Positions 2,497 through 14,533 of a stretch of DNA of 17,581 nt are shown in pieces (positions within the stretch are counted from its first letter, which is position 1; every line of letters begins with the position of its first letter). Source of the stretch: Candidatus Aenigmatarchaeota archaeon (GTDB taxonomy: Archaea; Aenigmatarchaeota; Aenigmatarchaeia; QMZP01; QMZT01). The notes beneath the pieces were generated by a model. It was not told the origin of the DNA and did no database searches. It was given only the letters and a program-made list of their open reading frames with translations. Position numbers and translations under genes: made by a program. Location of the stretch: contig JBGPQP010000017.1 of the NCBI GenBank assembly GCA_041489155.1, positions 1 to 17,581 on the forward strand, in the 5' to 3' direction.

Positions 2497-2518
2497 GTTT
2501 CCCGCCAAAAACAAATTG

Positions 2519-2959: not shown

Positions 2960-2974
2960 CGGACTGGTCCCGAT

Positions 2975-4204
2975 TTACTGTTTCTTTCTTCTCCTGAAGT
3001 AGAAGAACCAGCCCGCGTTTATCATCACGAGAATGAGCACCAGAGGAACGAGAATATCCGCTCCCGGCCCTGCCCCGCCTTTCGTTGTTATCGCCCTCGC
3101 GGTCATGCCCACGATTTCAGTCTCTATGCTCTCGAGCTCGACCTGCGTCTTGAGCAGTTTCTCGGAGGTCTTGCCTGCGTAATGGAGGATGAGCTTCGCA
3201 TCATACGTCCCCTTCTCGACACCTTCGGTGTCCCAGTAGGCGTAGAGCGTCGCCCGCTGCAGGGGCTCGACGTCGACGGACGCCGATTTGAAGCTTGCTA
3301 CCTGATCGCCTTTCTGGCTGCTGATGACCATCTCGCCGAAGACGTTGTCAATCCTCTGATTCCACTTGTTCTCGATGTTTATCTCGAATTTCGCTATGCC
3401 GCCTAGTACGAAGTTCCTTACCTTGACGTCGAGGACTTCTATCCTCATGGCTCCGACCACAAAGTTCTTCTCTATCTTTGCGGTCTTGCCGTCGTAGTTC
3501 ACGCTTACGACGGCGCGGTAGGTTCCTGGGTTGACGTTCGCCTCCCAAGGTATCGTTATTTCCCCGCTTTTCTTGGATTCTATCGCTATCGTTTCGCTTT
3601 CGACGGAGGCGATTTTATCGTTCGTCGGCCCGAGGATGTCGACGGTGGCGAAGGCCTTGTATATGTTTTCAGTGCCAAGGTTGAAGACCTTGACGAAGAA
3701 CGTCGCCGTGGTGTTAGGCTCGACCTCGTTTATGGCCAGGTCGAGCTCTGCGTATTTGCCGGGATAAGGGACCTTGACCCTCAGCTGATGGGCCACTGCA
3801 GTGGTCGCCATGACTATCTGCCCTGCCTCGTTCCCCGCCTCGGGCAGTTCCATCACGACCAGTTTCGCCCAGTTGTCCCCGGGGGTTTCCAGTTTTTCCG
3901 GAAGCCTGAACCTGTATGTGAAAGGCTTTGACTCGTCGGTCTCCTTGAACTCGATTATGTTTTTCTCGGCCGTTATGTAATCCTTGAGGTCGCCTTCCGC
4001 GTAAACGAAGGCCTTGAAATCCTTGTGCTCGTTGTTGATTATCGTAAAGGTAATGCTTTTTTCAAGGTTCGGCTCGAAATCTATCGTGGTTCTGCCCGGC
4101 GTCAAGCCGATCGCCTTCGCGCTTGCAGCGCCCAGACTGAACATTACCAAAACTGCCGTTGCCAAGATCAGCGTTTTACGCCTGCTCTGCCATGACATTT
4201 TCAT
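2975..4204 (-). CDS. Secreted multi-Ig-domain protein with C-terminal membrane anchor (PapD-N/DUF916-DUF3324-like architecture)
   Basis: 409 aa, with an alternative start at 4198. Signal peptide ends AKA and the mature protein begins IGLTPGRTTIDF. Two further CARDB/Ig-like domains (W...PGTYRAVVSVNY; WDT...KGTYDAKLILHY), then a C-terminal TM helix and RRRKKQ tail. Confidence 0.8.
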   Translation of the reverse strand: MKMSWQSRRKTLILATAVLVMFSLGAASAKAIGLTPGRTTIDFEPNLEKSITFTIINNEHKDFKAFVYAEGDLKDYITAEKNIIEFKETDESKPFTYRFRLPEKLETPGDNWAKLVVMELPEAGNEAGQIVMATTAVAHQLRVKVPYPGKYAELDLAINEVEPNTTATFFVKVFNLGTENIYKAFATVDILGPTNDKIASVESETIAIESKKSGEITIPWEANVNPGTYRAVVSVNYDGKTAKIEKNFVVGAMRIEVLDVKVRNFVLGGIAKFEINIENKWNQRIDNVFGEMVISSQKGDQVASFKSASVDVEPLQRATLYAYWDTEGVEKGTYDAKLILHYAGKTSEKLLKTQVELESIETEIVGMTARAITTKGGAGPGADILVPLVLILVMINAGWFFYFRRRKKQ

Positions 4205-4667
4205 TCCCTTCGATTTCGAAGCTCTCGTTTATGCCCAGTATGAATAGGCCTGTTATCCCCCCTCCCAGGCCACTGACTTTGAGCTCTGTGTTGCCCTCGT
4301 TCTTTATATCGTTCTCGGTTCTCGAGAGCACGACGCTCGAGCCCAGCGTGAACTTAGCCGCGCCGCTGGAGAAGGGGCCGGATTCGACTTTCCAGTAATA
4401 CGTCCCGAAATCCATGTCGCTTTCCGGCACGTAGGAGTTTCCGGTCATCCTAACTGCGATTGGCGTTTTGAATTTCGAATTGTCGTCGAGGTAAAGCGTG
4501 TATTCTCCCTGCATCCCGCCCCATGCAAATGACGGCCTCCTGTCGGTCATGTATGCCTTGTTGCCTGGTGAAATCAGGGGTATGGTGAGGAGATTAAGCA
4601 GCAGATAGGAAAGCATGACTATGACAAACAAATTCGCAATAATTACGGTTATCTTGCCTTTATTCAT
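4176..4667 (-). CDS. Membrane-anchored protein with one FN3/Ig-like domain
   Basis: 163 aa. N-terminal TM helix, then LISPGN...PSFAW...Y.LYLDDN..F...GTYYWKV. This FN3-like pattern is also present in the upstream 522-aa protein (LTSPEN...PTFDW...YYNWSV). Overlaps the start of the next gene. Confidence 0.8.
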   Translation of the reverse strand: MNKGKITVIIANLFVIVMLSYLLLNLLTIPLISPGNKAYMTDRRPSFAWGGMQGEYTLYLDDNSKFKTPIAVRMTGNSYVPESDMDFGTYYWKVESGPFSSGAAKFTLGSSVVLSRTENDIKNEGNTELKVSGLGGGITGLFILGINESFEIEGNENVMAEQA

Positions 4668-4671
4668 TTTT

Positions 4672-6240
4672 TCACCTGTGGTACTCCCCGGTAAACACCA
4701 GCGTTGAATTCTTGGAGCCGGGAGGCTCGTCCCCCGGGACCGTTATGCCTATGTCAACTTCGAAAGAGCTGTTGCCGGCAGTGTAGTTGAGGTTGTCAAC
4801 AAACGTCGTGTTGGTTTGCGGGACACTCTCCCAGTCGGTCTGGGAGCCGCTCCAGTTGAAGGCGCCCGCTTCGTCGGAAAGCCAGTCGACCTTGTACTGG
4901 AAATACGAGGATGGCGTTGATACAAAGTCCCACAAAAGGTCGCTCGCGGATATGTTCACGTCGATCATGCAATTGCTTGTGCTCTGTACAGAGAAAGGAT
5001 AGGGGTTGTTGTCGCTGGTGTTGTCGGAATAGCTAGGCGGCCTGTTTTCCCCGAAGTCAACAGTGTCGTTGAGCATGATAATCGAGATGTTCGTGTCTAT
5101 GATAAGCTTCCATATGTCGCTCCATATGCCGTATTCATAACCGTCGCCAGCCCGCACAGACCAGTTGTAGTAGCTGTTGTCGTCGCCGAAGTATTTCAGC
5201 TCCGTGGTCGGCGTGTAGGAATTTGTCATTATATCAGTGACATATCTGTTGTCGTCAGACATGCATGTTCCAAAACAGGTTATGTTTATCGTGTAGTTCA
5301 GCGTGTCGCTGTCTGCGTCGCTCGGAACTTCCCAGTCGAACGTGGGTGTGTGGTCGGTGGTGTGCGACTCATTCTCGGGCGATGTTAGCACGACCTTTTC
5401 CGGCTCGTCGTTCTCCCTGAAGGTGCGCAGGGACTCGTTGGCCATGTTGTTCACGGAGTCGTTGGCGTAAACCTTGAAAGTGTACGTCGTCCCGTCCGTC
5501 GTAGCCTTCGTCGCGTCGCAGGTCACGCTGCTGCCCGTCCCCCTCATGGTCATCGTCTCATTGACACCGTTCCACTCCAGAATGCAGGTATCCACGCTTA
5601 CCCCGGAGTCTGACGTGACGGTGACGTTAATGGTCTCGCTGTTAGAGGTGCGGCGTGTATCGTCGTCCGGCGTCGGGTTTACGTAAGTAATGATCAGGTC
5701 GGATATGACCCCGCAGCATATTTTCCTCCTGTATTCCGTGCAGGGTCCCAGGTGGGCGTCGGTATCGTTGTTTTCAGATGGATAGGCAGAAGCCATTGAG
5801 GCGAAGCATTCCCTGTTCGCAGGGCAGGCGTCGTCGACGTATGTGCAGTTGACGTAGCCTGGCACCCCGCTGAGACAGGCGCTTATGCCGTAAACTATCG
5901 CTCCCGAGTAGTCTCCGCGCTGCACGTGCGTGTTCGTGGTTGCATTTAGCTTGACAACAATCCCCTCGCCGCAGTTGTAGGAAAGCGTGGAGTTCGAATC
6001 GCAGCATATGGTGTAAGGATATGTTGCCTCTGAAACGTTCTCAGCGTGGGCGTTATAATAGCCTCCGGTGTCGTTTTTCAGATACAAAACTTTGGTGTAG
6101 GAGCAGCTGCCGCTCGCTGTTATGCTGCAGCTGAAATTGCCTGCTGCCGAGACGATGTATGCCGGGGAGAAGAGCATGAACATGATGAAAACGGCGGCAG
6201 CTAACAAAAGCACACCAGTGACCGAAGAGCTTTTCATCAT
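4672..6240 (-). CDS. Secreted multidomain surface protein: Cys-rich N-domain, Ig and FN3 domains, C-terminal WxL/fimbrial-like beta-sandwich
   Basis: 522 aa. Signal peptide, then a Cys-rich region (NAHAE...YTICC...AHLGPC...KICC), Ig/FN3 domains (YTFKVYANDS; YYNWSVRAGDG), and a C-terminal domain running from VDFG to ITVPGDEPPGSKNSTLVFTG. Confidence 0.8.
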   Translation of the reverse strand: MMKSSSVTGVLLLAAAVFIMFMLFSPAYIVSAAGNFSCSITASGSCSYTKVLYLKNDTGGYYNAHAENVSEATYPYTICCDSNSTLSYNCGEGIVVKLNATTNTHVQRGDYSGAIVYGISACLSGVPGYVNCTYVDDACPANRECFASMASAYPSENNDTDAHLGPCTEYRRKICCGVISDLIITYVNPTPDDDTRRTSNSETINVTVTSDSGVSVDTCILEWNGVNETMTMRGTGSSVTCDATKATTDGTTYTFKVYANDSVNNMANESLRTFRENDEPEKVVLTSPENESHTTDHTPTFDWEVPSDADSDTLNYTINITCFGTCMSDDNRYVTDIMTNSYTPTTELKYFGDDNSYYNWSVRAGDGYEYGIWSDIWKLIIDTNISIIMLNDTVDFGENRPPSYSDNTSDNNPYPFSVQSTSNCMIDVNISASDLLWDFVSTPSSYFQYKVDWLSDEAGAFNWSGSQTDWESVPQTNTTFVDNLNYTAGNSSFEVDIGITVPGDEPPGSKNSTLVFTGEYHR

Positions 6241-6242
6241 GC

Positions 6243-6479
6243 TTATACCATTTTAATTTTTTCCAGGCTTGGCCCATTCTCCAAGTAATAGAGCTTCGCC
6301 TTTCCCACATCCCTGCGTTTGACAGTGCCTTTGGCTTCAAGAATGGCGAGATATTTCGACGTCGTCGCGCGGTGGGCGTTGATTTTCCTGGAAATCTCGC
6401 TTATCGTAAGCGACGTTTCAGCCCTTTTCAGAACTTCGATTATCGCGTTTTCGATGTCTATCGCCCAACCCAGCGACAT
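6243..6479 (-). CDS. Small winged helix-turn-helix transcriptional regulator (paralogue 1)
   Basis: 78 aa with LTISEISRKINAHRATTSKYLAILEAKGTVKRRDVGKAKLYYL, a classic archaeal wHTH with beta-hairpin wing. Manual alignment gives 36/58 identical core residues with the gene at 12309-12569. The stop is 2 nt from the next ATG. Confidence 0.9.
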   Translation of the reverse strand: MSLGWAIDIENAIIEVLKRAETSLTISEISRKINAHRATTSKYLAILEAKGTVKRRDVGKAKLYYLENGPSLEKIKMV

Positions 6480-6511
6480 TGATGCTGAACATCAATGACT
6501 AACATTAATTA
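6476..6511. promoter_or_regulatory. Putative HTH operator array: three ACATYRATGT-like boxes at 13-bp period
   Basis: ACATTGATGC (6476), ACATCAATGA (6489) and ACATTAATTA (6502). Includes a perfect inverted repeat CATTGATG-n5-CATCAATG (6477-6497) overlapping the HTH start codon. The same motif lies upstream of the paralogous HTH. Confidence 0.75.
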
Positions 6512-6520
6512 TTTGGTCCA

Positions 6521-6545
6521 GCCTGAATATAAAATTATTTCAGGC
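6521..6545 (-). promoter_or_regulatory. TATA box (TTTTATA on minus strand) enclosed in a 7-bp inverted repeat
   Basis: GCCTGAA (6521-6527) and TTCAGGC (6539-6545) flank TATAAAA (6528-6534), 12 nt downstream of the upstream gene's stop. Confidence 0.55.
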
Positions 6546-6557
6546 GTCTTCGCAGCA

Positions 6558-7151
6558 TCACGTGCAGCCAGTCAGGGCCTCTATCCATGCCCTTTCCCTG
6601 ACGCCAGTGTAGTTCATGCGGTTGTAAAGGATGGTCGGAATCTCCTGTACGCCTATCTGCTGGCAGGCCTGCAGGTTCGCGCCAACGCAGTCGACGTAGA
6701 CCTTATTGGCATAGTTGCCGATTATCAGCAGCTGCTGCAGCGTGTTGGGCTCGCTCTTCTGGCCGAGAACGAGGAAGTTTTTCGCTTTCAGGCATTCGGA
6801 GAAATTCTTTTCTTTGTCCAACCTCTCCATGAAACCAGAAACTTCAATGATGTTACCTGATTCTGAAAAGAATCTGCCGTCCTTCGTGGCATATACCTCC
6901 CTCAGCACGTCGCCGCCCTGGATTTTCAGCCTGAGCAGCAGTCTGTAAAGGGAGCCTTCGTCATGCGTTGACAGCACTTCGACGTCGCTTTCTGTCAGCA
7001 GTTCGTAAACGCTTTTCACGCTGTCCAAAACCTGTTTCTGAGATTCTGATGTGATGGTATTCTGCAAGAGCGTAAATGCCAATATAACGATCAGAATCAG
7101 GATGATACCGATGTAAATCAGATCTCTTTTTTCAGGTTTTTTAGCGGCCAT
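6558..7151 (-). CDS. Membrane-anchored thioredoxin-fold protein with DsbC-N-like domain, lacking the redox CxxC motif
   Basis: 197 aa. N-terminal TM helix and an EGSLYRL...VYATKDGRFF DsbC-N-like segment. The pattern FSECL...YVDC...C..IGVQEIPT...YTG...LTGC matches VKOR-associated-type thioredoxin domains, but EPNT (6741-6752) occupies the CPHC position. Confidence 0.7.
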   Translation of the reverse strand: MAAKKPEKRDLIYIGIILILIVILAFTLLQNTITSESQKQVLDSVKSVYELLTESDVEVLSTHDEGSLYRLLLRLKIQGGDVLREVYATKDGRFFSESGNIIEVSGFMERLDKEKNFSECLKAKNFLVLGQKSEPNTLQQLLIIGNYANKVYVDCVGANLQACQQIGVQEIPTILYNRMNYTGVRERAWIEALTGCT

Positions 7152-7171
7152 ACAATAAAAATGAAAGCAGA

Positions 7172-7180
7172 ATATAAAAA
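7172..7180 (-). promoter_or_regulatory. TATA box for a leaderless transcript of the thioredoxin-fold gene
   Basis: TTTTTATAT on the minus strand, 21-29 nt upstream of the ATG at 7151. Confidence 0.6.
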
Positions 7181-7197
7181 CTTATTCTCAAGAACAG

Positions 7198-7245
7198 AAA
7201 AAAACAAAATGAAAAGAAAAAAGGAGGGTTGTGGGCTTCACCCTC
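7198..7245 (-). terminator. Probable terminator after the fibre gene (short stem plus oligo-T tracts)
   Basis: A GAGGGT/ACCCTC inverted repeat (7224-7229 and 7240-7245) is followed on the minus strand by CTTTTTTCTTTTCATTTTGTTTTTTT, directly after the TGA stop. Confidence 0.6.
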
Positions 7246-10200
7246 AGCCTAGTTGTACCACAACGTCCCCAGTCGATGATTTTATCGTGTCACCTACCGA
7301 TATGTTCCCCGCGACCACAAGCTTCGCCGCCGACGGGTTCGTTGTCCCGATGCCGACGTTGCCGTCTGCTTTTATTGTCATTTTTGTGCTGCTATTAGCT
7401 TGAAATGCAAAATCACTTTCAGTGAATGTTCCCATAGTCATTCTGTTTATGCCGCCTGAGCTTCCAACGAATATGTTGCCAGCAACGTTAGGGGCTGTAG
7501 AATTAAGGCGAATACTTATATTGTCGCCGGCAAGATGGAGTAATGACGCAGGACTCGTCGTCCCGATGCCGACGTTGCCCTTGAATGTGGAATTCCCGGC
7601 TCCAAAGGATTGCAATGAACCCGAAAGGACAACGTCACCTGTATTCCTTGTACCGTCAACATACGGAGTAGCCATTGGCTTCTCCTCGAATTGTACGTCG
7701 TCAACCAAAAAGCTACCTTGTACAGCATTGTTGTTGGTTCTGATGTACGCGCTTAAGGTTCCTGAAGAGGTGGGTGTAAAGACCCAGTAGAACCGCTTCC
7801 ATTCGGACGTGGAGATTCCCGTGAAAGAGCCGCCCCCGGCAACCGTGGTCACCGAAACGCCTGCTGATGAGAAGTATGGCGTTGTTACACAACTGATGTT
7901 CTTGGCGTAAACAGACATGGTATAGGTATGCCCCGATGTTACCTCCTGATTCTCCCAAAGGGCAATGGCTGCCACGGTAGAGCTGGTTATATTAGCGGAG
8001 TATGCCCCGGAGCGGACATCGCTGGTATAGATCGCCAGGGCCCCATCCGTCTTTGCATCAAAGCTCCACGGGCTTGTGCTGCCGGTCTCGAATCCTGGGT
8101 TCGTATACCTGTTTGTCGTGCCGTCGTCTACAAAAACCGATCCGCTGGTCACGGAAAGGCTGGCATTGCGTATCTGGGCTGTTCCGCTTACATCCAGCTT
8201 GGCCCAGGGATCCGGCCCCGTCGTCCCGATGCCGACTCCTGTTGCCGTATCGTTGTAAACGTAACCGCCGCTCGTTGCCCAGCCTGCTCCTCCGCTACTA
8301 TCCGTCCCGCATGTCCCAACACCGTCAGACCACTTCAATATCTCCCCATTAGCGCAGTTGGCCTTGAGCGTGATGTTCGAGACGTTCAGCGTCCCGGCCA
8401 CGTCCAGCTTCTGCGTCGGGCTCGCCGTCCCGATGCCGACGTTGCCAGTTGTTGCGTTAATGTGCATTCTATCAACACCGTTTGGCATAAGAACTATATC
8501 TCCTGCATATCCTGTATATAAAACCAAAGGATAGGCTATGCCAGTTCCAAAGGCAGTCCCAGCTGCATTGTCTGTTACCAAATAAGCGACACCAGCACCA
8601 TTTGAAATTGAATGTGACGCCCAATTTGTTCCTGTGGCTGAAGCCCTTATGTCTGGTGACGCAGCAGATACTTCAAGTTTTGTAGTCGGACTCGTCGTCC
8701 CGATGCCGACCCTGTCATTATTCGAATCAACGAAAAGCGTGCCGCCATCGAAGCTCGCGTTGCCGGCAATCGTGTGCGTTCCTGTTCCCAACACGGAGAA
8801 ATTGCCGTTGAGCGTCAGGCCGCCGTCGGACGTGAAGTCTGTGTTGGCGCTGCCTATGTTTGATATCGCGTTGTTCGCCATGTCCAGCGCTCCGCCGACG
8901 GTCGGGCTTGTCAGCGTGTCGTCGCTGCCTACCGTGCATGCCTCGCTGGAACATGTGTCGTCGTCGTCGCAGAGGTCCGAGCTTCCAGTTATTGTCGAGC
9001 ACTCCGTGGCAAGACTTGTTGAGTCGACATCCGAAGCACCGACGCAGTCGCTACAGGCCACGTCTGTCGCCGTCTGGTTCGCCCACGCCGTGCGGTTGGC
9101 AGTCACATCTAGACTTGTTGCGTGGTACGTCGAGTTGTAAGAGGAGGTCAGTCCCGAATCGTCCGCGCAGTCCCAGTCATTCGAACCCGTCTTCTTCAGT
9201 ATCTGGCCGTTCGAGCACGACGCGCCGTCAGGCATTATCTCATTGTAGAATATCAGGCTTCCGCTGGACGCGTTAATGTCTCCTGCCACTTCGAGCTTGT
9301 TGGCAGGCGCCGCCGTCCCGATGCCGACGTTGCCGCCAGTTAATATCGTCATTTTGGCGTTATCTGCGCCGGTTCTAAATACAATATCTCCCGTTGCGAC
9401 ATTCCCCGCAGCTAAATATAGTTTTCCCGGGGTAGATGGGTCTTCATTTCCAGAGAGATGAATATACGCACCCCTTGCAGCGGCATTGTTTCCACCTCCC
9501 GAAACTGATAAATAATTGGTATCAGCACCATCGGTAGAGCTTGGAAGTATTTTTTTTCCACCACTACCAGACAACATTAAGTTTCCGGCTACGTCCAAAG
9601 TTGCCCCCGGTGCCGTCGTCCCGATGCCGACGTTGCCGGATTTATCAACTATAAGCTTGCCGGTTCCGTTACCGTTGTCTATCCTGAACAAGCTGCTGTC
9701 TTTGTATGCGTTTACGTTGGTCCAGTTATAGCTTGCGGCAGAGTCAAGCGTGATGTTCGAAGCTGTTATCGCGCTCACCGTGAATATTTCACTGTTTGTA
9801 ACATTGGTTATTTTTATTGCGTCGCCCACGCTGATTTCTGTTATGAGGTCTGCAGAGGTATTTACCAGTGTAGAACCTGTTGAAGTATTCACCGTGCCGG
9901 ACAGCGCGGTTCCAAGAGTTCCCTTAACATTCAATATGGTTGACGGACTCGCCGTCCCGATGCCGACTCTTCCGTTCAAAGCGTCTACATACAGCGTCGT
10001 GCCGTTCGCGATGAAGAACTTGTTGACGGTAAGGTTGGTCGGGAATATGAAGTCCCCTGTGTCGAAGGTGCTCCCTGATATAGCCGATGCCGGGTGGCCG
10101 GGGTCAGCTGCTTTTGCAAACGGAACGATAAGCAGCGCCGCGAAGGCAAAGAAAACGAGGGCTAGAGCTACCGCTAGGCCTGGTTGCGTTCTGGGCTTGG

Positions 10201-10276
10201 AAAATCCTCCAGTCACGGAGGCGTTTATCGGTTTGCCTCCGGACTTACATTTTCTGGACTTTTCCCTCAAGCCCAT
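7244..10276 (-). CDS. Large secreted fibre/adhesin-like protein with eight G(N/R)VGIGT repeats and a CBM4/9-like carbohydrate-binding domain
   Basis: ATG at 10276 has a perfect GGAGGTGA SD 5 nt upstream (1010 aa); an alternative ATG at 10315 has AGGTGA. Hydrophobic signal segment ends AKA-ADPGH. VGIGT repeats resemble trimeric beta-fibre proteins. NPGFETG...GHTYTMSVYAK...EWKRF...LVDDVQFE...ATPY (about 7654-8118) is CBM4/9-like. No C-terminal S74 chaperone domain. Confidence 0.8.
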   Translation of the reverse strand: MGLREKSRKCKSGGKPINASVTGGFSKPRTQPGLAVALALVFFAFAALLIVPFAKAADPGHPASAISGSTFDTGDFIFPTNLTVNKFFIANGTTLYVDALNGRVGIGTASPSTILNVKGTLGTALSGTVNTSTGSTLVNTSADLITEISVGDAIKITNVTNSEIFTVSAITASNITLDSAASYNWTNVNAYKDSSLFRIDNGNGTGKLIVDKSGNVGIGTTAPGATLDVAGNLMLSGSGGKKILPSSTDGADTNYLSVSGGGNNAAARGAYIHLSGNEDPSTPGKLYLAAGNVATGDIVFRTGADNAKMTILTGGNVGIGTAAPANKLEVAGDINASSGSLIFYNEIMPDGASCSNGQILKKTGSNDWDCADDSGLTSSYNSTYHATSLDVTANRTAWANQTATDVACSDCVGASDVDSTSLATECSTITGSSDLCDDDDTCSSEACTVGSDDTLTSPTVGGALDMANNAISNIGSANTDFTSDGGLTLNGNFSVLGTGTHTIAGNASFDGGTLFVDSNNDRVGIGTTSPTTKLEVSAASPDIRASATGTNWASHSISNGAGVAYLVTDNAAGTAFGTGIAYPLVLYTGYAGDIVLMPNGVDRMHINATTGNVGIGTASPTQKLDVAGTLNVSNITLKANCANGEILKWSDGVGTCGTDSSGGAGWATSGGYVYNDTATGVGIGTTGPDPWAKLDVSGTAQIRNASLSVTSGSVFVDDGTTNRYTNPGFETGSTSPWSFDAKTDGALAIYTSDVRSGAYSANITSSTVAAIALWENQEVTSGHTYTMSVYAKNISCVTTPYFSSAGVSVTTVAGGGSFTGISTSEWKRFYWVFTPTSSGTLSAYIRTNNNAVQGSFLVDDVQFEEKPMATPYVDGTRNTGDVVLSGSLQSFGAGNSTFKGNVGIGTTSPASLLHLAGDNISIRLNSTAPNVAGNIFVGSSGGINRMTMGTFTESDFAFQANSSTKMTIKADGNVGIGTTNPSAAKLVVAGNISVGDTIKSSTGDVVVQLG
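7344..9967. repeat. Eight identical dispersed in-frame 14-nt repeats GTCCCGATGCCGAC (coding strand GTCGGCATCGGGAC, encoding VGIGT)
   Basis: Copies start at 7344, 7560, 8223, 8427, 8697, 9315, 9618 and 9954. Five copies extend to the identical 20-mer GTCCCGATGCCGACGTTGCC. Start-to-start spacings of 216, 663, 204, 270, 618, 303 and 336 nt are all multiples of 3. Confidence 0.95.
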
Positions 10277-10281
10277 CTTCT

Positions 10282-10289
10282 TCACCTCC
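10282..10289 (-). promoter_or_regulatory. Shine-Dalgarno GGAGGTGA
   Basis: Plus strand reads TCACCTCC, 5 nt upstream of the ATG at 10276. Confidence 0.75.
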
Positions 10290-10324
10290 ATCTTTGAAAC
10301 ATCAATTCTTTCCATACGTCTCAC

Positions 10325-12316
10325 CTAAAAGTTCGAGTTGTAGTGAAGCACCCCCTTGAAATACATGTTCCCGGTTGCGCCGTCTATGAAGCCGGCCGTC
10401 GTTCCCGCCGAATCCCTTACGATAAAATCGTCGTTCCCGGAAGGCGCAGGGCTCGTCTGCTTGTAGAAATACCCTTTCGTGTACATGTTGCCAGAATTGT
10501 CCACGTATAGCATCACCGTCCCTGCCGAATTCCTGATTTGGAAGCAGTTCGAACATGACAGCGTTCCGCCCTGGCCGGCATTGTAAGCCCCCTTTATGTC
10601 AATATACCCGTTCTTGTCAAACCTCGCCTTCACTGCTCCGGTCGAATTCGTGATCAGCAGGCACTTGTTGGAGGCGTCGCATGTTGTCCCAGAGCCGCCG
10701 TTTATCGTGTTGTCCACGCAGTCGTTTGATACGCACGAGCTTTCTATCGGGCAGTTGGCGTCCGTGAGGCAGTCGTACCACGTCCCTGCGTTGCAGTAGT
10801 CGGTGTCGCCGTTCCCGTCGCCGTCCGTGGCCGTGCTCCCGCTCGTCACGCAGGTTGTCCCGTCCGTCGCCACGCAGTCCGTCGACGCGTCGCAGCAGCC
10901 GTCCTGTGACGAAGTGCAGCTGCCCGAATCCGGGAAGCCCGAGGCCGCCTGGCAGTAGCGGTAATTCTCTCCGGAGTCGTCGCCGCAGCAGCATTCCCTG
11001 CTCGGATACCCTGCAGAACCTATTGTGCAGTAATTAGGACGAGAGCCTGTTGTCTCATAATATGCTCCTTCCACATCCGCATCACCGCCCATGTTCCAGT
11101 GAAAACCATTGGCTGTGCAATAAGAGGTGTGGTAGTCGACGTTTATCCACCATGATGGATCTTGGGACGGATAGCAGCGATAATCGTTCCTGCCGTCGCT
11201 GTCAAGGTCATAATATGCGTTAGTTGCATAACAGTTCCCGTTGTAGAAGCAGTCGTAAACTCCATTGCAACATGCATCAGAGGATGTATCGGAACCTCCA
11301 ATCTTCCCGTTGCCTTCGCCGGTGTTGCTCGGGTAAAGGTATTTCCATGCATAGAACTCGCTCGCATCATCCTCGCAGCAGCTCTGCGAAGTCCCGGATT
11401 CCCATGTCATAGGGTTCGCCCCGTTCCAGCAGCTTGCGCCATTGCAGTTGGTCGCCCCGACCTTGCAGTTGCACCAGTTCTGGTCGCTGTCCCAGCTGAC
11501 GGTGTAGGCAGTGACCCATGAAGAGTAATCCCAGTCATACGCATCCCCTTGCGCATATGCCCTCGACTGGATGTCATATGTCCCTTCAGATGAGCAGTAA
11601 ACATAACCGTCGCTGTCTGTCCATGTCTCCTGAATCGTATTGGCAAGAGCGCAGCAGTCTTCAGTATAGCAGGTGCATGTGCATCCGCCTGAAGACGAGG
11701 AATATGAAGAATCCTGCCACCCGCGCGGGTCGTTGGAATCGGCGGGGTCTCTCAGGAGGTAGTCCATATCGCTGGTATCGCACATGTGGCATGGCGAAGC
11801 ATCCGTTCCTGTGCAGCTCGCCAAATTTTCTGCGTACGCGGTCTTGCTCATGAAGGAAAATTTTAGATAATGATGGCCGGTCGCGAGAATCTTCAAGAAA
11901 AGCCTTCCCGTTCCGTTTTCGCATTTCCAATCCCTGGCGACAATCTTTCCGTTGTCAATTCCTTCAATCCATGATTCGTTATTGGCTTTTACAGAGAAAT
12001 ATCCCTCAGCTTCGGTCTTCTTGTCGTTGCAGGTCAGCGCAATGAATTCTATATCCTTGCCGAAATACGTTCCATTATAAGCCTCTATTTCCAAATCACC
12101 CTCCCCCTCGGTTTCGAATTTAAGCTCCCACCTTCCCCACAGGGTGGGAGTTGAAACCGGGTTGAGGATTTTTATGTTAACATTTTGCTGCGGCTGTAAG
12201 ATGGAATGCATTAAGAACTCAAGGAGGTTGGTCTGTTTTGCAGCCGCCTGAACGGGCAATAATAACATGGCTAGGCAAACCACCAGCATTGCCCCTGCCG
12301 CTGTTTTTCTATTCAT
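10325..12316 (-). CDS. Secreted cysteine-rich surface protein (43 Cys) with DxDxDG-like motifs and a C-terminal three-repeat beta domain
   Basis: 663 aa. Signal peptide ends VQA-A, followed by a ~125-aa N-terminal beta domain. Two internal repeats CC(E/G)DD..E.Y...D.CC....DC...C...DxDx(D/N)G..DY.C. Three C-terminal repeats of type (I/V)x(N/D)SxG......D..G....KG. Confidence 0.8.
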   Translation of the reverse strand: MNRKTAAGAMLVVCLAMLLLPVQAAAKQTNLLEFLMHSILQPQQNVNIKILNPVSTPTLWGRWELKFETEGEGDLEIEAYNGTYFGKDIEFIALTCNDKKTEAEGYFSVKANNESWIEGIDNGKIVARDWKCENGTGRLFLKILATGHHYLKFSFMSKTAYAENLASCTGTDASPCHMCDTSDMDYLLRDPADSNDPRGWQDSSYSSSSGGCTCTCYTEDCCALANTIQETWTDSDGYVYCSSEGTYDIQSRAYAQGDAYDWDYSSWVTAYTVSWDSDQNWCNCKVGATNCNGASCWNGANPMTWESGTSQSCCEDDASEFYAWKYLYPSNTGEGNGKIGGSDTSSDACCNGVYDCFYNGNCYATNAYYDLDSDGRNDYRCYPSQDPSWWINVDYHTSYCTANGFHWNMGGDADVEGAYYETTGSRPNYCTIGSAGYPSRECCCGDDSGENYRYCQAASGFPDSGSCTSSQDGCCDASTDCVATDGTTCVTSGSTATDGDGNGDTDYCNAGTWYDCLTDANCPIESSCVSNDCVDNTINGGSGTTCDASNKCLLITNSTGAVKARFDKNGYIDIKGAYNAGQGGTLSCSNCFQIRNSAGTVMLYVDNSGNMYTKGYFYKQTSPAPSGNDDFIVRDSAGTTAGFIDGATGNMYFKGVLHYNSNF

Positions 12317-12569
12317 GACCGCTGCCGCCTCTTCCGTTCAGAAACACCATGTCAGGATTTTGAAGTACCTTAACAGAACCAAGCGAATACAGCTTCGCTT
12401 TCCCGACGTCCCTCCTCTTGACGAAGCCTTTTGCCTCCAGGACTGCAAGATACTTTGAGGCAGTCACCCTGTGTATCCTTGTCCTTTCGGCTATTTCCAG
12501 TATGGTCAAAGAACTGTCAGACTGCTTGAGTATGCCCAGTATAATCTCTTCTAAAAACGAAGGCTCCAT
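12309..12569 (-). CDS. Small winged helix-turn-helix transcriptional regulator (paralogue 2)
   Basis: LTILEIAERTRIHRVTASKYLAVLEAKGFVKRRDVGKAKLYSL. ATG at 12569 is preferred over TTG at 12575 because of the GAGGGT SD-like element upstream. The stop overlaps the start of the Cys-rich gene. Confidence 0.9.
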   Translation of the reverse strand: MEPSFLEEIILGILKQSDSSLTILEIAERTRIHRVTASKYLAVLEAKGFVKRRDVGKAKLYSLGSVKVLQNPDMVFLNGRGGSGHE

Positions 12570-12593
12570 TACCAACCCTCATCCTGCATGATT

Positions 12594-12637
12594 GACATTA
12601 ATGTCGAAAATTCGACATTGATGTATTACATTAAATA
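12594..12637. promoter_or_regulatory. Putative HTH operator array: three ACATYRATGT-like boxes
   Basis: Perfect 12-bp palindrome GACATTAATGTC (12594-12605), ACATTGATGT (12615-12624) and ACATTAAATA (12628-12637). Also an inverted repeat AATGTCGAA-aa-TTCGACATT (12600-12619). Confidence 0.8.
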
Positions 12638-12651
12638 ATTGGCATAACTAG

Positions 12652-12657
12652 TATAAA
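12652..12657 (-). promoter_or_regulatory. TATA box (TTTATA) of the second HTH operon
   Basis: Plus strand TATAAA starts 24 nt from the start of the promoter-proximal box. The equivalent offset in the first HTH promoter is 26 nt. Confidence 0.55.
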
Positions 12658-12677
12658 TTGGCTAGCAAAATATTATC

Positions 12678-13061
12678 TCATGCGTTACGACCTGCCTTCG
12701 TTTCTATGCTCTCTATGCATGAGTCTGATAACCCCCTGTCAACAATCTCCTGGCACATGGTCTTGTTCAGCGAAAGCCTTGCAATGCAAAAAGTCCTGAT
12801 GTCATATGCCTGTATCTGCTGGCAAAGGGCAATGTTTTGGTTTATTTCGGCGACATCGCCTATACAGAAATCCTTCTTTGAGGTTTTTTCGCAGTCGGCC
12901 AGCGTGGGATGCTCAGGATAAGAATCATTAAGGGCGTCTTTAGCCGAGTCATTTTTCTCCGAAGCATTTGTATTGCTGGTATTCTCAGGTACCTCAAAAT
13001 GGATAAACAAAGCTGCGGCCAAAGCGAATGCAGCCAATAAAACTATAGCCCATTTGTTCAT
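12678..13061 (-). CDS. Hypothetical membrane-anchored or secreted protein with Cys-pair helical repeats
   Basis: 127 aa. N-terminal hydrophobic helix and low-complexity linker, then three C...C units (CEKTSKKDFC; CQQIQAYDIRTFC; CQEIVDRGLSDSC). ATGA overlap with the upstream gene. Confidence 0.75.
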   Translation of the reverse strand: MNKWAIVLLAAFALAAALFIHFEVPENTSNTNASEKNDSAKDALNDSYPEHPTLADCEKTSKKDFCIGDVAEINQNIALCQQIQAYDIRTFCIARLSLNKTMCQEIVDRGLSDSCIESIETKAGRNA

Positions 13062-13501
13062 TCGTTCACTTCCAAGATGACATTTTTGTTGGGCGTGCCC
13101 ATCCTGGTTTTGTAGCAGTCATTGCCGCAGCACCACTCTGCGGAAAAGCTTCTGATGTCGATGTCATTCGCACACGGTACAAGTTTCAGCACCCCTGTCC
13201 TGTCTGTCTCGAGAGGAGAATTTATGTTAAAATCGGCCGGTAGATTTATCGTGGTTTCCGTGCCCCTGGGAACTATTATTTTTATATAAGTCACGTTCTT
13301 CTCAGCCGGGTTGTAAAAGGGGACCATAAGATAGCCGTCTATGCATTTGCCATAGCCGTACTCTATTCTGCAGTCAGTCGAAAGCGCTCCTGAAAGCTCA
13401 TCTTCCCAGTAAAGCCTCAAGGCAAAAATAAGCAGGGCAATAAAAAAAACCGCAGCAAAAATCAGGTATTTCTTTTTTTCGTCTTTCCTTTTATTTTTCA
13501 T
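13058..13501 (-). CDS. Hypothetical membrane protein with a Cys-containing extracellular beta domain
   Basis: 147 aa. Basic N-terminus, TM helix and 6 Cys. TTTTTAAAAT TATA-like element at 13530-13521 upstream. Confidence 0.75.
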   Translation of the reverse strand: MKNKRKDEKKKYLIFAAVFFIALLIFALRLYWEDELSGALSTDCRIEYGYGKCIDGYLMVPFYNPAEKNVTYIKIIVPRGTETTINLPADFNINSPLETDRTGVLKLVPCANDIDIRSFSAEWCCGNDCYKTRMGTPNKNVILEVNE

Positions 13502-13546
13502 TTGAAATACTTGTCTTATAATTTTAAAAATTGCTTTGAGGAGGTT

Positions 13547-14473
13547 TTATGGCACGGGCACGAGTTCATCGAAGCCTCTTTTTTCCGCATATTCTTTGAA
13601 TATGCCTTCGCATATCTTGTCGTACTTGCACGCCTTGCATTGCCTGCCTTTAACTCTTGCATATTCTCTTCTGTTTTTCTCTACCTCCAAATCCCTGAAT
13701 TCCGGACCTACATGTTCTTCTTTAAGTCTATCTCTTGATTCGTATTCGCTCAAATAAGATTCGTAACCAACGCCTGCCATGTAGCATAAAGGAATGTATC
13801 TCATTACGAAATGCCTTATGTTATGCTCCTTACCGACGTTTATTGTTTTTGATATGTAATCCGACACTTCCTTTAATGTCGGCACAATTGTGTCAAAATT
13901 TTTGTAGGCATTGCCTCTTGGATGTATGAAAATGAATTCGCAGCCATCCGCTCCCAGTTTTATGTTATTTTCGGCTATTTGGGGAAGGTATTTGTAGTTT
14001 GGCCTGATTATCACCGTGTTTGTGCAAACGTAAATATTGGGTTTTATCTCCTTTACGTTTTTTATACCTGCCGTCGCCTGTTTGAAGGATCCAGGAGACT
14101 GGGTTAGATAGTCGTGGAGTTCAGCGTTGTGGCCGTGTATGGAGAATATGACATGGTTAAGACCGCATCCTATTATCTTTTCAGCGAAAGCCCTGTAATA
14201 GAACATTCTCCCATTTGTCGTGGTTGCTATTGTACGGAAACCCAGCCTTTTCGCATATCCTACAAGCTCAAAAATGTCCTTCCTTATTGTCGGCTCACCG
14301 CCGAGAAAATCAACAAAATTGCACCCCCTTTTAATTCCCTCTTCCATCTCTTTCTTGGCCTCTTCTGTTGTTTTGGGTTTTATGTTGCTTTCTCTTTTGT
14401 CTGCGCAATAACAGAATCTGCAATAATTGTTGCATTCATATCCAAGAATCAACGAGAGTTTCTTCGTTATCAT
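13547..14473 (-). CDS. Radical SAM protein (HxsC-related, C-terminal auxiliary Cys motif)
   Basis: CNNYCRFC, GGEPT, TTNG, SIHG...HDYLT..PGSF and C-terminal PLC...CKACKYDKICEG. Start moved to the ATG at 14473 (308 aa). Confidence 0.9.
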   Translation of the reverse strand: MITKKLSLILGYECNNYCRFCYCADKRESNIKPKTTEEAKKEMEEGIKRGCNFVDFLGGEPTIRKDIFELVGYAKRLGFRTIATTTNGRMFYYRAFAEKIIGCGLNHVIFSIHGHNAELHDYLTQSPGSFKQATAGIKNVKEIKPNIYVCTNTVIIRPNYKYLPQIAENNIKLGADGCEFIFIHPRGNAYKNFDTIVPTLKEVSDYISKTINVGKEHNIRHFVMRYIPLCYMAGVGYESYLSEYESRDRLKEEHVGPEFRDLEVEKNRREYARVKGRQCKACKYDKICEGIFKEYAEKRGFDELVPVP

Positions 14474-14498
14474 ATTCCCGAGTATAGTTTGTAAATAG

Positions 14499-14507
14499 AT
14501 TTTTAAG
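14499..14507. promoter_or_regulatory. Probable bidirectional TATA element between divergent radical SAM and methyltransferase genes
   Basis: TTTTTAA at 14500-14506 is centred between the ATGs at 14473 (minus) and 14534 (plus), about 27-28 nt from each. Confidence 0.45.
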
Positions 14508-14533
14508 GTTAAGTTCAATTCTAATTAATTATC

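What the first reader, a model, noticed from the sequence alone, without database searches (positions are those of the whole stretch)
7344..9967. Identical 14-20-nt junctions separate modules of contrasting GC content in the fibre gene: possible cassette-shuffling diversification
Seen: all eight VGIGT repeats use exactly GTC GGC ATC GGG AC, with no synonymous variation, and the two Gly codons are always GGC then GGG. The intervening modules are unrelated and compositionally mosaic: hand counts give 21/60 GC at 7381-7440, 22/60 at 8461-8520 and 24/60 at 9541-9600, versus 41/60 at 8881-8940. The GC-rich junction persists even beside AT-rich modules. Protein-level selection alone does not explain fixed third positions. 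Inference: the junction is a recombination or gene-conversion site allowing in-frame exchange of modules from different sources, a shufflon- or integron-like route to adhesin variation. No recombinase lies in this window.
Basis: partly seen in the sequence, partly recalled or inferred. Interest (0 to 1): 0.82.

Follow-up and report, generated by a model that had tools for sequence, protein, structure and literature searches.

The report
Conserved DNA word joins fibre modules
A surface-fibre gene of a tiny symbiotic archaeon is a patchwork of unrelated modules, each joined by the same short DNA word that also recurs in fibre genes of many bacteria and archaea, most likely as a patch of identity where modules are swapped by ordinary recombination.

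Summary
GTCGGCATCGGGAC occurs 8 times, all in frame as VGIGT in one 1026-codon gene and nowhere else in the genome. Genome codon use predicts about 1-2% per copy. The gene encodes a secreted, probably trimeric fibre of the Bdellovibrio MAT / phage tail-fibre kind in an Aenigmatarchaeota (DPANN) archaeon. VGIGT is its structural connector motif.

- **Word beyond this gene:** In 23 homologous genes of related genomes the same codons are used in 33 of 100 VGIGT copies (0.29 expected). Equally conserved residues a few codons away follow background codon use. In an unbiased metagenome sample the 20-mer GGCAACGTCGGCATCGGGAC is the commonest encoding (14 of 150, 0.16 expected), mostly inside AT-rich genes.
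- **Modules:** They are unrelated to each other and differ in GC3 (0.31-0.73). Each has its best relative in a different protein, one labelled as a bacterium (76% identity). They differ between same-genus genomes at a syntenic locus.
- **Best reading (0.55):** The word is a short identity patch for general homologous or microhomology recombination, as in T-even phage adhesin genes.
- **Not supported:** A shufflon or integron. All copies are direct, there is no nearby recombinase or cassette store, and four samples show one arrangement.

The parts
7244..10324 (-). Fibre gene. 1026 codons from GTG; the database copy of the same protein starts 3 codons later and has 1023 aa. It is secreted, modular and MAT / phage-tail-fibre-like.
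   Evidence: ORF list and translation. PDB hits to Bdellovibrio MAT fibres: 8OND E 3e-7, 8OJN E 4e-4. PHROG tail fiber phrog_9942, E 5e-24. 100% database copy P0002.
10109..10177 (-). Hydrophobic N-terminal segment (aa 50-72, LAVALALVFFAFAALLIVPFAKA) followed by ADPGHP. It reads as a signal or anchor sequence.
   Evidence: Read from the translation. The same N-terminal region is 60-74% identical in homologues P0004-P0012. No signal-peptide predictor was run.
9954..9967 (-). Word copy 1 (VGIGT, aa 120-124); junction m0|m1
9618..9631 (-). Word copy 2 (aa 232-236); junction m1|m2; carries the full 20-mer GGCAAC+14-mer
9315..9328 (-). Word copy 3 (aa 333-337); junction m2|m3; full 20-mer
8697..8710 (-). 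Word copy 4 (aa 539-543); junction m3|m4. |dGC3| across it is 0.49.
8427..8440 (-). Word copy 5 (aa 629-633); junction m4|m5; full 20-mer. |dGC3| is 0.54. The k=31 contigs of run X1 break here (30-base overlap 8417-8446).
8223..8236 (-). Word copy 6 (aa 697-701); junction m5|m6
7560..7573 (-). Word copy 7 (aa 918-922); junction m6|m7; full 20-mer. The k=31 contigs of run X1 break here (overlap 7550-7579).
7344..7357 (-). Word copy 8 (aa 990-994); junction m7|m8; full 20-mer; the next codon is ACA, not ACG
9968..10324 (-). Module m0 (aa 1-119): conserved N-terminal anchor, GC3 .605. It is the only module matched in all 6 gene pieces at the syntenic locus of 5 related genomes.
   Evidence: (P0006 74%)
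9632..9967 (-). Module m1 (aa 120-231), GC3 .545. Best relative P0013 at 72% over 112 of 112 residues, inside a protein with a different N-terminus.
9329..9631 (-). Module m2 (aa 232-332), GC3 .386. Best relative P0019 at 66% over 101 of 101 residues.
8711..9328 (-). Module m3 (aa 333-538), Cys-rich, GC3 .728. Best relative P0004 at 74%; P0004 carries it twice.
8441..8710 (-). Module m4 (aa 539-628), GC3 .311. No relative above 40% among the 119 other proteins that one search listed, all of them compared.
8237..8440 (-). Module m5 (aa 629-696), GC3 .721. Best relatives P0023 (81% over 48 aa) and P0011 of the same-genus genome G003 (69%).
7574..8236 (-). Module m6 (aa 697-917), GC3 .611, with a CBM_4_9 / NTTRR-F1-like domain at about aa 737-890. 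It is 76% identical over 221 of 221 residues to each of two tandem copies in a protein labelled Patescibacteria. Within the archaeon's own phylum it was found in only 2 of 370 other genomes, at 35% identity or less.
7358..7573 (-). Module m7 (aa 918-989), GC3 .417. No relative above 40% among the proteins compared.
7247..7357 (-). Module m8 (aa 990-1026): conserved C-terminal end ...STGDVVVQLG, GC3 .649
   Evidence: P0007 65%, P0004 62%
10325..12316 (-). Conserved upstream neighbour (663 aa, no family). It is syntenic with the fibre gene in G003, G004, G009, G014 and G021.
6558..7151 (-). Conserved downstream neighbour (197 aa, no family). Syntenic in G003, G009 and G014; not found in the G004 locus.

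Best explanation
The gene encodes a secreted, probably homotrimeric surface fibre of an Aenigmatarchaeota (DPANN) archaeon. It is of the same kind as Bdellovibrio MAT fibres and phage tail fibres. GNVGIGTxxPxxKLxV is the structural connector (capping-loop type motif) that opens each module.

At the DNA level the connector is written with one particular GC-rich word. The core is GTCGGCATCGGGAC and the consensus is GGCAACGTCGGCATCGGGACGAC. This word is kept far beyond what the protein or codon use requires. That holds in this gene, in its order, and in fibre genes of many bacterial and archaeal phyla.

The most likely mechanism is that the word is a 14-30-base patch of exact identity between otherwise unrelated module-coding DNA. 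General recombination joins modules there, in frame. The possible routes are unequal crossing-over, template switching, single-strand annealing, and homologous recombination with incoming DNA. This gives duplication, loss and replacement of whole modules, including modules from distant donors.

Only junctions that carry the common word can take part, so the word is preserved in genes that keep exchanging. No dedicated recombinase is needed.

Shown here: the repeat; the codon constraint and its extent; the module mosaic; the word-bounded duplications; the cross-domain module; the syntenic but non-collinear relatives. Inferred: that crossovers actually occur in the word, and that this is why it is conserved.
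For: 1. Local nucleotide constraint with an internal control. Over 121 motif copies in 24 genes, codon use departs from the genes' own background only at codons -2 to +6. Examples are the 2nd Gly as GGG in 89 of 121 (background .15) and Val as GTC in 81 of 114 (background .24). The equally conserved P+7, L+11, V+13 and G+15 follow background, with KL of .14 or less. Leaving the window gene out, GTCGGCATCGGG is used in 33 of 100 VGIGT copies against .29 expected.

2. It is a specific word, not general GC enrichment. GTC beats GTG 81:8, GGC beats GGG 90:11 at Gly1, GGG beats GGC 89:12 at Gly3, and ACG beats ACC 71:5.

3. Generality.
- The exact 14-mer is in 18 of 60 related genomes; the reversed control is in 0.
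These are labelled CPR, DPANN, methanogens, Acidobacteria, Planctomycetes, Elusimicrobia, Gammaproteobacteria and others.
- In codon-blind samples it is 14 of 150 metagenome copies (.16 expected from each ORF's own codons; 10 of the 14 sit in ORFs with GC3 .20-.36) and 4 of 196 viral copies (.07 expected).

4. Modules behave as exchange units bounded by the word.
- Each module's best relative lies in a different protein and aligns end to end: m1 112 of 112, m2 101 of 101, m6 221 of 221.
- m6 is 76% identical to a Patescibacteria-labelled protein. There it is tandemly duplicated (220 of 221 residues identical between copies) with the junction inside the motif. In the archaeon's own phylum it was found in only 2 of 370 other genomes, at 35% or less.
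- GC3 jumps are larger at motifs than elsewhere.194 against .116, Mann-Whitney p 1e-6; 5 of 7 window junctions reach .31 or more.
- Of 146 internal ends of 43 intragenic or intralocus direct repeats (90 nt or more, 85% or more), 44 lie in a word against 9.9 expected.
- DNA homology between the window gene and the same-genus G003 gene stops 11 bases after word 1 and resumes 5 bases before word 5.

5. The locus is syntenic in 5 related genomes, but only the N-terminal anchor matches in all 6 gene pieces; the fibre ORF is 376, 847, 1039 and 1401 aa in four of them and split over two contig ends in G003.

6. Precedent. [quoted passage not shown]

7. Protein identity. PDB, PHROG and NCBIfam hits. 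A trimer model of aa 905-1026 scored 0.92 against 0.09 for the best of 3 controls. That mark was reached by 21 of 30 proteins solved as pairs of one chain and by 0 of 23 solved as single chains. The runs agree in at least 96% of contacts, and the partner's pLDDT is at least 90. The pass may come from likeness to solved MAT fibres.
Against: - No recombination event was seen directly. In four runs every contig piece that bridges a word is collinear with the window. All listed 'joints' have sides of 33 bases or less, so they are other genes that share the word.
- 14-24 bases of identity is at or below the length usually thought needed for efficient RecA/RadA-type exchange (recalled, not from a call).
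- Breakpoints at connectors could reflect selection for foldable proteins rather than a recombination hot spot.
- The protein-level test of HSP ends was weak: 6 of 15 ends near a motif against .216 expected, p = .084. It is also partly circular, because motifs extend alignments.
- Copies with the canonical word do not show clearly larger GC3 jumps: exact copies .192 against .194; copies with one mismatch or fewer .211 against .171, p .026; Spearman -.09, p .31.
- Codon sharing in the core is nearly as high between genes as within genes. Intragenic gene conversion alone therefore does not explain it, and a selective reason unrelated to recombination is not excluded.
- Most phage copies of the motif use other codons (192 of 196).
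- GC3 mosaicism is not unique to this gene; 10 other long ORFs in the genome exceed it.
Confidence: 0.55

Rival explanations
1. Passive footprint. The word spread by descent and horizontal transfer of a successful fibre family. It is kept alike by short-tract, possibly GC-biased, gene conversion among copies. It plays no part in creating new module combinations; module boundaries are set only by what folds.
For: All third positions of the word are G or C. Core GC3 exceeds control columns and background in all three data sets: relatives .668/.431/.491, metagenome .448/.312/.352, viral .435/.242/.307. Cross-domain sharing of module m6 shows that transfer happens. Canonical copies do not have clearly larger GC3 jumps.
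Against: GC-biased conversion predicts any G/C-ending codon, yet one specific codon is chosen at each site: GTC 81 against GTG 8, ACG 71 against ACC 5, and GGC at one Gly but GGG at the other. DNA similarity to distant carriers is confined to 20-60 bases around the motif, so there is no recent shared descent of the flanks. Conversion itself needs pairing at the word, so this rival overlaps the main reading.
Confidence: 0.2
2. Selection on the mRNA or on decoding. The particular codons (common GGC, AAC, GTC, ACG plus rare GGG) are kept for translation speed or accuracy, or for a local RNA structure, at a structurally critical turn of each module.
For: The constraint is local, is on the coding strand, and is seen across taxa. 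Part of the GGG preference is a general neighbour effect: Gly before Thr is GGG .25 against .14 overall in this genome. GGC, AAC, GTC and ACG are the genome's commonest codons for their residues.
Against: - The word sits unchanged in genes with GC3 of .20-.36, whose preferred codons differ.
- Other conserved residues of the same motif show no codon bias.
- The 8 copies give no consistent fold; z-scores run from -0.6 to -2.6 with different structures.
- The candidate stem CGUCG/CGACG has no covariation support: in the AT-only subset the odds ratio is 1.7, p .15, and the Watson-Crick excess equals that of non-pair controls.
- Rfam gives no match.
- Identical codons at the two Gly positions are not avoided: observed .36 and .44 against expected .22 and .25.
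Confidence: 0.15
3. Site-specific or guide-directed rearrangement. This would be a shufflon, an integron, or an unknown enzyme that recognises the word and moves cassettes.
For: The core is exact and of a length typical of recombinase core sites. It is conserved as a specific sequence.
Against: - All copies are direct, so a recombinase could only delete.
- There is no recombinase or reverse-transcriptase domain in the window, which is the whole contig.
- The genome has one tyrosine recombinase on another contig and no resolvase, at 89.65% completeness.
- There are no further copies or silent cassettes in the genome.
- Four runs show a single arrangement.
- The word occurs in both domains and many phyla, where no shared enzyme is known.
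Confidence: 0.05
4. Assembly chimera. The mosaic was made by the assembler joining fibre genes of different organisms at the shared word of about 30 bases.
For: The k=31 contigs of run X1 break at words 5 and 7. Depth peaks of up to 95 at word bins show that many other contigs in the same samples share the word. Related assemblies break inside this gene: G003 at the ends of C6 and C7.
Against: - The pieces tiling the gene in X1 have similar depth (6.7-10.5) and no differences.
- Pieces with 0 differences and similar low depth cover all parts of the gene in three further runs from other studies.
- Contigs bridge 6 of the 8 words.
- The frame stays open over 1026 codons, and both conserved ends and the syntenic neighbours are in place.
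Confidence: 0.03

Closest known systems
Bdellovibrio bacteriovorus MAT (mosaic adhesive trimer) fibres, e.g. Bd2133 (PDB 8OND, 8OJN, 8ONB, 8ONC, 8OML); Caulton et al. 2024, PMC10769870 (abstract and passages read)
   Same: The protein has sequence similarity through the connector motif (E 3e-7 and 4e-4). It has an N-terminal export segment, a long fibre built of beta-rich modules, and a conserved end combined with diversified modules. The paper describes 'capping loops' with consensus V-G-G/N-pi-x-x-P-x-x-x-L, which VGIGTxxPxxKL resembles. A trimer is predicted.
   Different: The host is an archaeon, not a predatory bacterium. There is no S74 chaperone domain. Both ends are conserved and the interior varies. 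Similarity of the N-terminal domain to the MAT N-domain was not tested. In the passages found the paper says nothing about DNA-level conservation or recombination at the motif.
T-even phage tail-fibre and adhesin genes (gp37 His boxes; gp38 glycine-rich motifs); Trojet et al. 2011, PMC3157838 (abstract and passages read), citing Tetart et al. 1998 (not read)
   Same: Short conserved motif-coding stretches separate unrelated or hypervariable segments of a receptor-binding protein. Crossovers within these small motifs swap segments between genes that otherwise lack homology. No dedicated recombinase is involved.
   Different: There the motifs are shared within one phage superfamily and exchange was shown by crosses. 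Here the same 20-23-base word is shared across phyla and across both domains, inside genes of very different base composition. Exchange is inferred from comparison only.
Shufflon of IncI plasmids (Rci recombinase, sfx repeats); recalled, not from a call
   Same: Short repeats lie at in-frame junctions of alternative segments of an adhesin (pilus tip) gene.
   Different: Shufflon repeats are inverted and flank invertible segments next to a dedicated tyrosine recombinase. Here all repeats are direct, no recombinase is nearby, and no alternative arrangement was seen.
Integron gene cassettes (IntI, attI, attC); recalled
   Same: The idea of modules captured from different sources at a recurring site.
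   Different: There is no integrase, no attC-type imperfect palindromes and no promoterless cassette array. The junctions lie inside one reading frame and encode a structural motif.
Phage tail fibres and spikes with an S74 intramolecular chaperone (K1F endosialidase, T5 L-shaped fibre), and cellular 'tail fiber domain-containing proteins'
   Same: PHROG tail-fibre families match (phrog_9942, E 5e-24). Many database homologues carry PF13884. The same connector motif is frequent in viral contigs.
   Different: This gene lacks PF13884. Its neighbours match no phage family: 0 of 6 neighbours in PHROGs. It sits in a conserved cellular locus.

Membership tests
MAT / phage-tail-fibre-like trimeric fibres | Sequence similarity to solved members | tested here: met
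   phmmer against PDB: 8OND bd2133 at E 3.1e-7; 8OJN/8ONB/8ONC at E 4.1e-4. The matches run through the connector motif and adjoining strands. PHROG tail fiber at E 4.6e-24.
MAT / phage-tail-fibre-like trimeric fibres | Repeated capping-loop / connector motif (published consensus V-G-G/N-pi-x-x-P-x-x-x-L) | tested here: met
   There are eight copies of VGIGT(T/A)xPxx(K)LxV. Read by eye against the consensus quoted, the fit has a one-residue difference in spacing. No structural superposition was done.
MAT / phage-tail-fibre-like trimeric fibres | Homotrimer with intertwined chains | tested here: met
   Model of 3 copies of aa 905-1026: score 0.92 against a best control of 0.09. The mark was reached by 21 of 30 solved same-chain pairs and by 0 of 23 single chains. 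Contact agreement is at least 96% and pLDDT at least 90. The pass may reflect likeness to solved MAT fibres. This is a prediction only.
MAT / phage-tail-fibre-like trimeric fibres | Conserved ~130-aa beta-rich domain after the signal peptide, homologous to that of MAT proteins | not tested
   A conserved N-terminal region exists among archaeal homologues. It was not compared with Bdellovibrio N-domains, and the PDB entries cover fibre tips only.
MAT S74 subgroup | C-terminal peptidase S74 chaperone (PF13884) | tested here: not met
   Pfam finds only a weak CBM_4_9 match. If the protein is a MAT, it would correspond to the non-S74 type.
Motif-mediated homologous module exchange (T-even gp37/gp38 type) | Short conserved coding stretches between unrelated segments, conserved at DNA level | tested here: met
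Motif-mediated homologous module exchange (T-even gp37/gp38 type) | Relatives are mosaics whose homology breaks lie in the motifs | tested here: met
   (44 of 146 repeat ends in a word against 9.9 expected). The weaker protein-level test gave p .084.
Motif-mediated homologous module exchange (T-even gp37/gp38 type) | Crossovers in the motif demonstrated by crosses or seen in a population | tested here: inconclusive
   Contigs of 4 runs show only the window's arrangement. The short 'joints' belong to other genes. Crosses cannot be done with these tools.
Shufflon | Inverted repeats flanking invertible segments | tested here: not met
   All 8 copies lie on the - strand in the same orientation.
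Shufflon | Adjacent dedicated tyrosine recombinase (Rci type) | tested here: not met
   There is no recombinase domain among 16 ORFs of the window, which is the whole contig. The single PF00589 match in the genome is on contig C15. The genome is 89.65% complete.
Integron | IntI integrase, attI, and attC-flanked promoterless cassettes | tested here: not met
   The junctions are in frame and encode a structural motif.
Diversity-generating retroelement | Reverse transcriptase with a template/variable repeat pair | tested here: not met
   Pfam finds no reverse transcriptase in the window. The only long-range repeats are the motif copies.

The most novel reading that the evidence does not exclude
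The 20-23-base word GGCAACGTCGGCATCGGGAC(GAC) is a cross-domain 'common connector' for surface-fibre modules. CPR bacteria, DPANN archaea, other bacteria and their viruses would share one pool of fibre modules. A module can be taken up in frame only where donor and recipient carry the same word. The word is then held constant by that use, a frequency-dependent constraint on synonymous sites, even inside AT-rich genes. A bolder version is that an as yet unknown sequence-specific machinery recognises it.
Probability: 0.3. Interest if true: 0.85.

Novelty: new variant of a known kind. Interest (0 to 1): 0.66.

Why it matters
Tiny episymbionts (DPANN archaea, CPR bacteria) depend on attaching to other cells, and how they diversify their attachment proteins is poorly understood. 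This locus shows a fibre whose modules come from different sources, one of them shared with a protein labelled as a bacterium.

It also points to a concrete DNA feature that could make such exchange possible: a short word kept constant at synonymous sites across phyla. If the word is the substrate of exchange, three things follow:
- It would be an example of selection acting on synonymous sites for recombinational compatibility across very distant genomes.
- It would give a simple sequence tag for finding exchangeable adhesin modules in metagenomes.
- It would explain why assemblies often break in these genes.

Modular, mosaic fibres and motif-mediated exchange in phage adhesins are already known. 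The new part is the specific word, its breadth, and its independence from the host genome's base composition.

Tried and rejected
- **Population rearrangements.** Contigs of runs X1, X3, X4 and X5 gave no alternative module order. The listed joints have sides of 20-33 bases at 90% likeness and belong to other genes that share the word. Parts without cover in X4 and X5 say nothing.
- **Close relatives in metagenome contigs by protein.** 86 pattern matches, none confirmed, so no alleles were available for fine breakpoint mapping.
- **Recent transfer of whole modules at DNA level from distant carriers.** Similarity to 150 genome loci and 140 viral loci is limited to 20-84 bases around motifs. tblastn against all these loci found only 25-40% periodic matches.
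- **Intragenic concerted evolution as the sole cause.** Core codons are shared almost as much between genes (.43-.67) as within genes (.50-.76).
- **Canonical word marks the sharpest GC3 jumps.** No clear relation.
- **RNA hairpin CGUCG...CGACG.** Folds of the 8 copies disagree and there is no covariation beyond controls. Rfam gives no family in the window.
- **Avoidance of a 6-base tandem repeat (TCGGCA x2) as the reason for GGC then GGG.** The same codon at both Gly positions is commoner than expected, not rarer.
- **Codon bias or neighbour effect as a full explanation.** Rejected.
- **Literature.**
  - Full-text searches for VGIGT (20 papers, on microcin J25, a flagellin and others, none on fibres) and for NVGIGT, VGIGTT, GIGTTSP and GNVGIG (0 papers) found no description of this motif's DNA word.
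  - This covers only the held library.
  - The supplements of PMC10769870, which include a motif alignment, were not opened.
- **Earlier notes of this scan.** Nothing was found near this place or by sequence.


Full report
**1. What is in the sequence**

The 14-mer GTCGGCATCGGGAC occurs 8 times in the window, all on the - strand, against none in 200 shuffles. All eight lie in frame in one ORF, 7244-10324(-), of 1026 codons. Each encodes VGIGT inside a longer motif, GNVGIGT(T/A)xPxxKLxVxG.

The window is a whole contig of a 1.13-Mb, 39-contig genome that is 89.65% complete. That genome holds no further copy of the 14-mer. Its only other VGIGT-coding site uses a different Gly codon.

Pairs of copies share 14-24 identical bases. 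Five carry the 20-mer GGCAACGTCGGCATCGGGAC.

Genome-wide, GTC, GGC, ATC and GGG make up .374.557.307 and .137 of their residues' codons. Allowing for a real neighbour effect (GGG rises to .25 before Thr), one copy has a chance of about .018. Eight identical copies are therefore not a product of codon bias.

The mosaic holds at synonymous sites:
- Module GC3 runs from .311 to .728, p = 3e-13.
- Ten other long ORFs of the genome are at least as heterogeneous; this gene ranks 11th of 133.
- Module bodies are unrelated to one another by BLASTP.

**2. What the protein is**

Against solved structures the protein matches Bdellovibrio MAT fibres: 8OND bd2133 at E 3e-7, and 8OJN/8ONB/8ONC at E 4e-4. 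The matches run through the motif region.

It matches PHROG tail-fibre families (E 5e-24). It has a weak carbohydrate-binding / NTTRR-F1-like domain at about aa 737-890. It has no S74 chaperone domain.

The MAT paper (PMC10769870; abstract and passages read) describes trimeric beta-helix/prism fibres with 'capping loops' of consensus V-G-G/N-pi-x-x-P-x-x-x-L. The present motif resembles that consensus.

Three copies of aa 905-1026 are modelled as an intertwined trimer:
- Score 0.92 against 0.09 for the best of 3 controls.
- The mark was reached by 21 of 30 solved same-chain pairs and by 0 of 23 single chains.
- The runs agree in at least 96% of contacts, and pLDDT is at least 90.
- Because like fibres are solved, this shows likeness rather than independent proof.

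Database homologues from same-genus and same-family genomes are labelled Aenigmarchaeota (P0011, P0014), so the host is a DPANN archaeon. Amino-acid conservation of VGIGT thus has an ordinary structural explanation. That is a lead, not independent evidence.

**3. The codon constraint is real, local and widespread**

I took 24 homologous genes from 20 loci of related genomes. All but two loci were chosen from protein matches, not from the word. Over their 121 motif copies, codon use departs from the genes' own background only at codons -2 to +6:
- The favoured codons are GGC AAC GTC GGC AT(C/A) GGG ACG ACG AG(T/C).
- The second Gly is GGG in 89 of 121 copies, against .15 in the background.
- The equally conserved P+7, L+11, V+13 and G+15 follow background. 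These columns sit in the same copies, so they control for relatedness.
- Without the window gene, 33 of 100 VGIGT copies use GTCGGCATCGGG (.29 expected) and 52 of 100 use GTCGGCAT(C/A)GGG (.8 expected).

The choice is of one codon per site, not of any G/C-ending codon.

The 14-mer is present in 18 of 60 related genomes, against 0 for the reversed control. The records are labelled CPR/Patescibacteria, Woese-, Aenigmat- and Nanoarchaeota, methanogens, Acidobacteria, Planctomycetes, Elusimicrobia, Gammaproteobacteria, Bacteroidota and others. That scan was ascertained by the word.

I therefore also scanned with a codon-blind pattern:

| Sample | Exact 20-mer | Expected from each ORF's own codons | Notes |
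|---|---|---|---|
| Metagenome | 14 of 150 copies, in 11 loci | .16 | Commonest of all encodings; 10 of the 14 lie in ORFs with GC3 .20-.36 |
| Viral contigs | 4 of 196 copies | .07 | Most phage copies use other codons |

In both samples the core columns are shifted toward the same word, while the control columns are not. An alignment of 18 exact carriers shows a 23-base island, GGCAACGTCGGCATCGGGACGAC, in otherwise unlike DNA.

In the sequencing runs that hold this gene, depth rises up to about tenfold at the word. Many unlike sequences continue on both sides of a core of about 30 bases. The word is therefore common in those communities too.

**4. Modules are exchange units bounded by the word**

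Each module's best relative lies in a different protein, and the alignments run from one motif to the next:

| Module | Best relative | Identity and span |
|---|---|---|
| m0 | P0006 | 74% |
| m1 | P0013 | 72%, 112 of 112 |
| m2 | P0019 | 66%, 101 of 101 |
| m3 | P0004 | 74% |
| m5 | P0023 / P0011 | 81% / 69% |
| m6 | P0003 | 76%, 221 of 221 |
| m8 | P0007 | 65% |
| m4, m7 | none | nothing above 40% |

P0003 is labelled Patescibacteria. It carries m6 twice in tandem, with 220 of 221 residues identical between copies, and the duplication junction lies inside the motif. Within the archaeon's own phylum, the m6 body was found in only 2 of 370 other genomes, at 35% identity or less. One module is therefore shared across domains, unless that bin is mislabelled.

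GC3 jumps are larger at motifs than elsewhere. Over 119 motifs the mean is .194 against .116, p 1e-6, and 5 of 7 testable window junctions reach .31 or more, with changing sign.

In the loci held, 43 direct-repeat pairs (90 nt or more, 85% or more) have 146 distinct internal ends. Of these, 44 fall in a word (27 bases, plus or minus 3) against 9.9 expected. Several pairs have all four ends in words. The conserved word tends to pull alignment ends toward itself, so this enrichment is an upper estimate.

**5. Related genomes**

The neighbourhood is HTH, 663-aa ORF, fibre, 197-aa, 522-aa, 163-aa, 409-aa, beta-helix protein. It is syntenic in five related genomes, with neighbours 47-76% identical. 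The fibre differs:
- The fibre ORF is 376 aa in G004, 847 in G009, 1039 in G021 and 1401 in G014. In G003 it is split over two contig ends.
- Only the N-terminal anchor is shared in all 6 gene pieces examined.
- Against the same-genus G003 gene, DNA homology (78%) ends 11 bases after word 1 and resumes (84%) 5 bases before word 5.

**6. Mechanism**

A short patch of exact identity at each in-frame junction of unrelated DNA is what homologous or microhomology-mediated recombination needs. [quoted passage not shown]

I therefore read the word as both substrate and footprint of module exchange by the cell's general recombination. The exchange includes incoming DNA. Junctions that keep the common word remain exchangeable.

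This last step is inference. No event was caught:
- Contigs of four runs show one arrangement. They bridge 6 of 8 words, with no differences.
- The protein-level breakpoint test was weak (p .084).
- Word canonicality does not clearly track GC3 jumps.

A dedicated shufflon or integron is not supported:
- The repeats are direct only.
- The window has no recombinase or reverse transcriptase.
- The genome has one tyrosine recombinase elsewhere and no resolvase.
- There is no cassette store.

**7. Rivals**

- **Passive footprint of spread plus gene conversion.** This remains possible. The core is a GC3 island in all data sets. But the choice of one specific codon per site argues that identity itself matters.
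- **Translational or RNA role.** This lacks support: folds are inconsistent, there is no covariation, and there is no Rfam family. It also fits poorly with the word surviving in AT-rich genes.
- **Assembly chimera.** This is unlikely given even depth, agreement of four runs, and an intact frame with conserved ends.

**8. Verdict**

Mosaic fibres and motif-mediated exchange are known. The specific word, its cross-domain breadth, and its independence from base composition appear not to be described in the library searched. That makes this a new variant of a known kind.

Noticed in passing
window 138-12575 (- strand): A conserved gene cluster surrounds the fibre gene. In order: an 88-aa winged-helix regulator, a 663-aa ORF with no family, the fibre, 197-, 522- and 163-aa ORFs with no family, a 409-aa putative S-layer/CARDB-like protein, and a 770-aa parallel beta-helix (NosD-like) protein. 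The order is kept in five related genomes. It may be a surface-appendage or adhesion apparatus of Aenigmatarchaeota.
   Followed up: partly
window 12600-17581: GC falls from about .50 to .31-.43. This part holds three radical-SAM genes and a methyltransferase. Its composition differs from the genome mean of .49.
   Followed up: no
window 7247-7357 and homologues P0004-P0017: Many archaeal homologues end in the same C-terminal sequence...GG(N/D)V(I/V)(I/V)QLG, just as they share the N-terminal ADPGHPASSIS... region. Both ends are conserved while the interior varies. The C-terminal end might be a sorting or attachment signal.
   Followed up: no
genome contigs C2, C4, C6, C7 and others: Ten other ORFs of 500 aa or more have GC3 dispersion as high as or higher than the fibre gene. 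The 663-aa neighbour (10325-12316) is among them. Mosaic composition may be common in large genes of this genome.
   Followed up: no
G003:C6 end and G003:C7 end (L059, L058); run X1 contigs at 7550-7579 and 8417-8446: Assemblies break inside these fibre genes exactly at the shared word. The same-genus genome has the gene split over two contig ends, and the k=31 contigs overlap by 30 bases at words 5 and 7.
   Followed up: partly
P0003 (protein labelled Patescibacteria), residues 412-853: A 221-residue carbohydrate-binding-like module is tandemly duplicated, with 220 of 221 residues identical. It is 76% identical to module m6 of the archaeal gene, which suggests a recent duplication and a cross-domain shared module.
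   Followed up: partly
L122/L123 (MAG labelled Pseudomonadales), L101-L103 (Paceibacterota): Single genes carry 10 to at least 14 copies of the exact 20-mer, and 277-base modules repeat at 97% identity with all four ends in words.
   Followed up: partly
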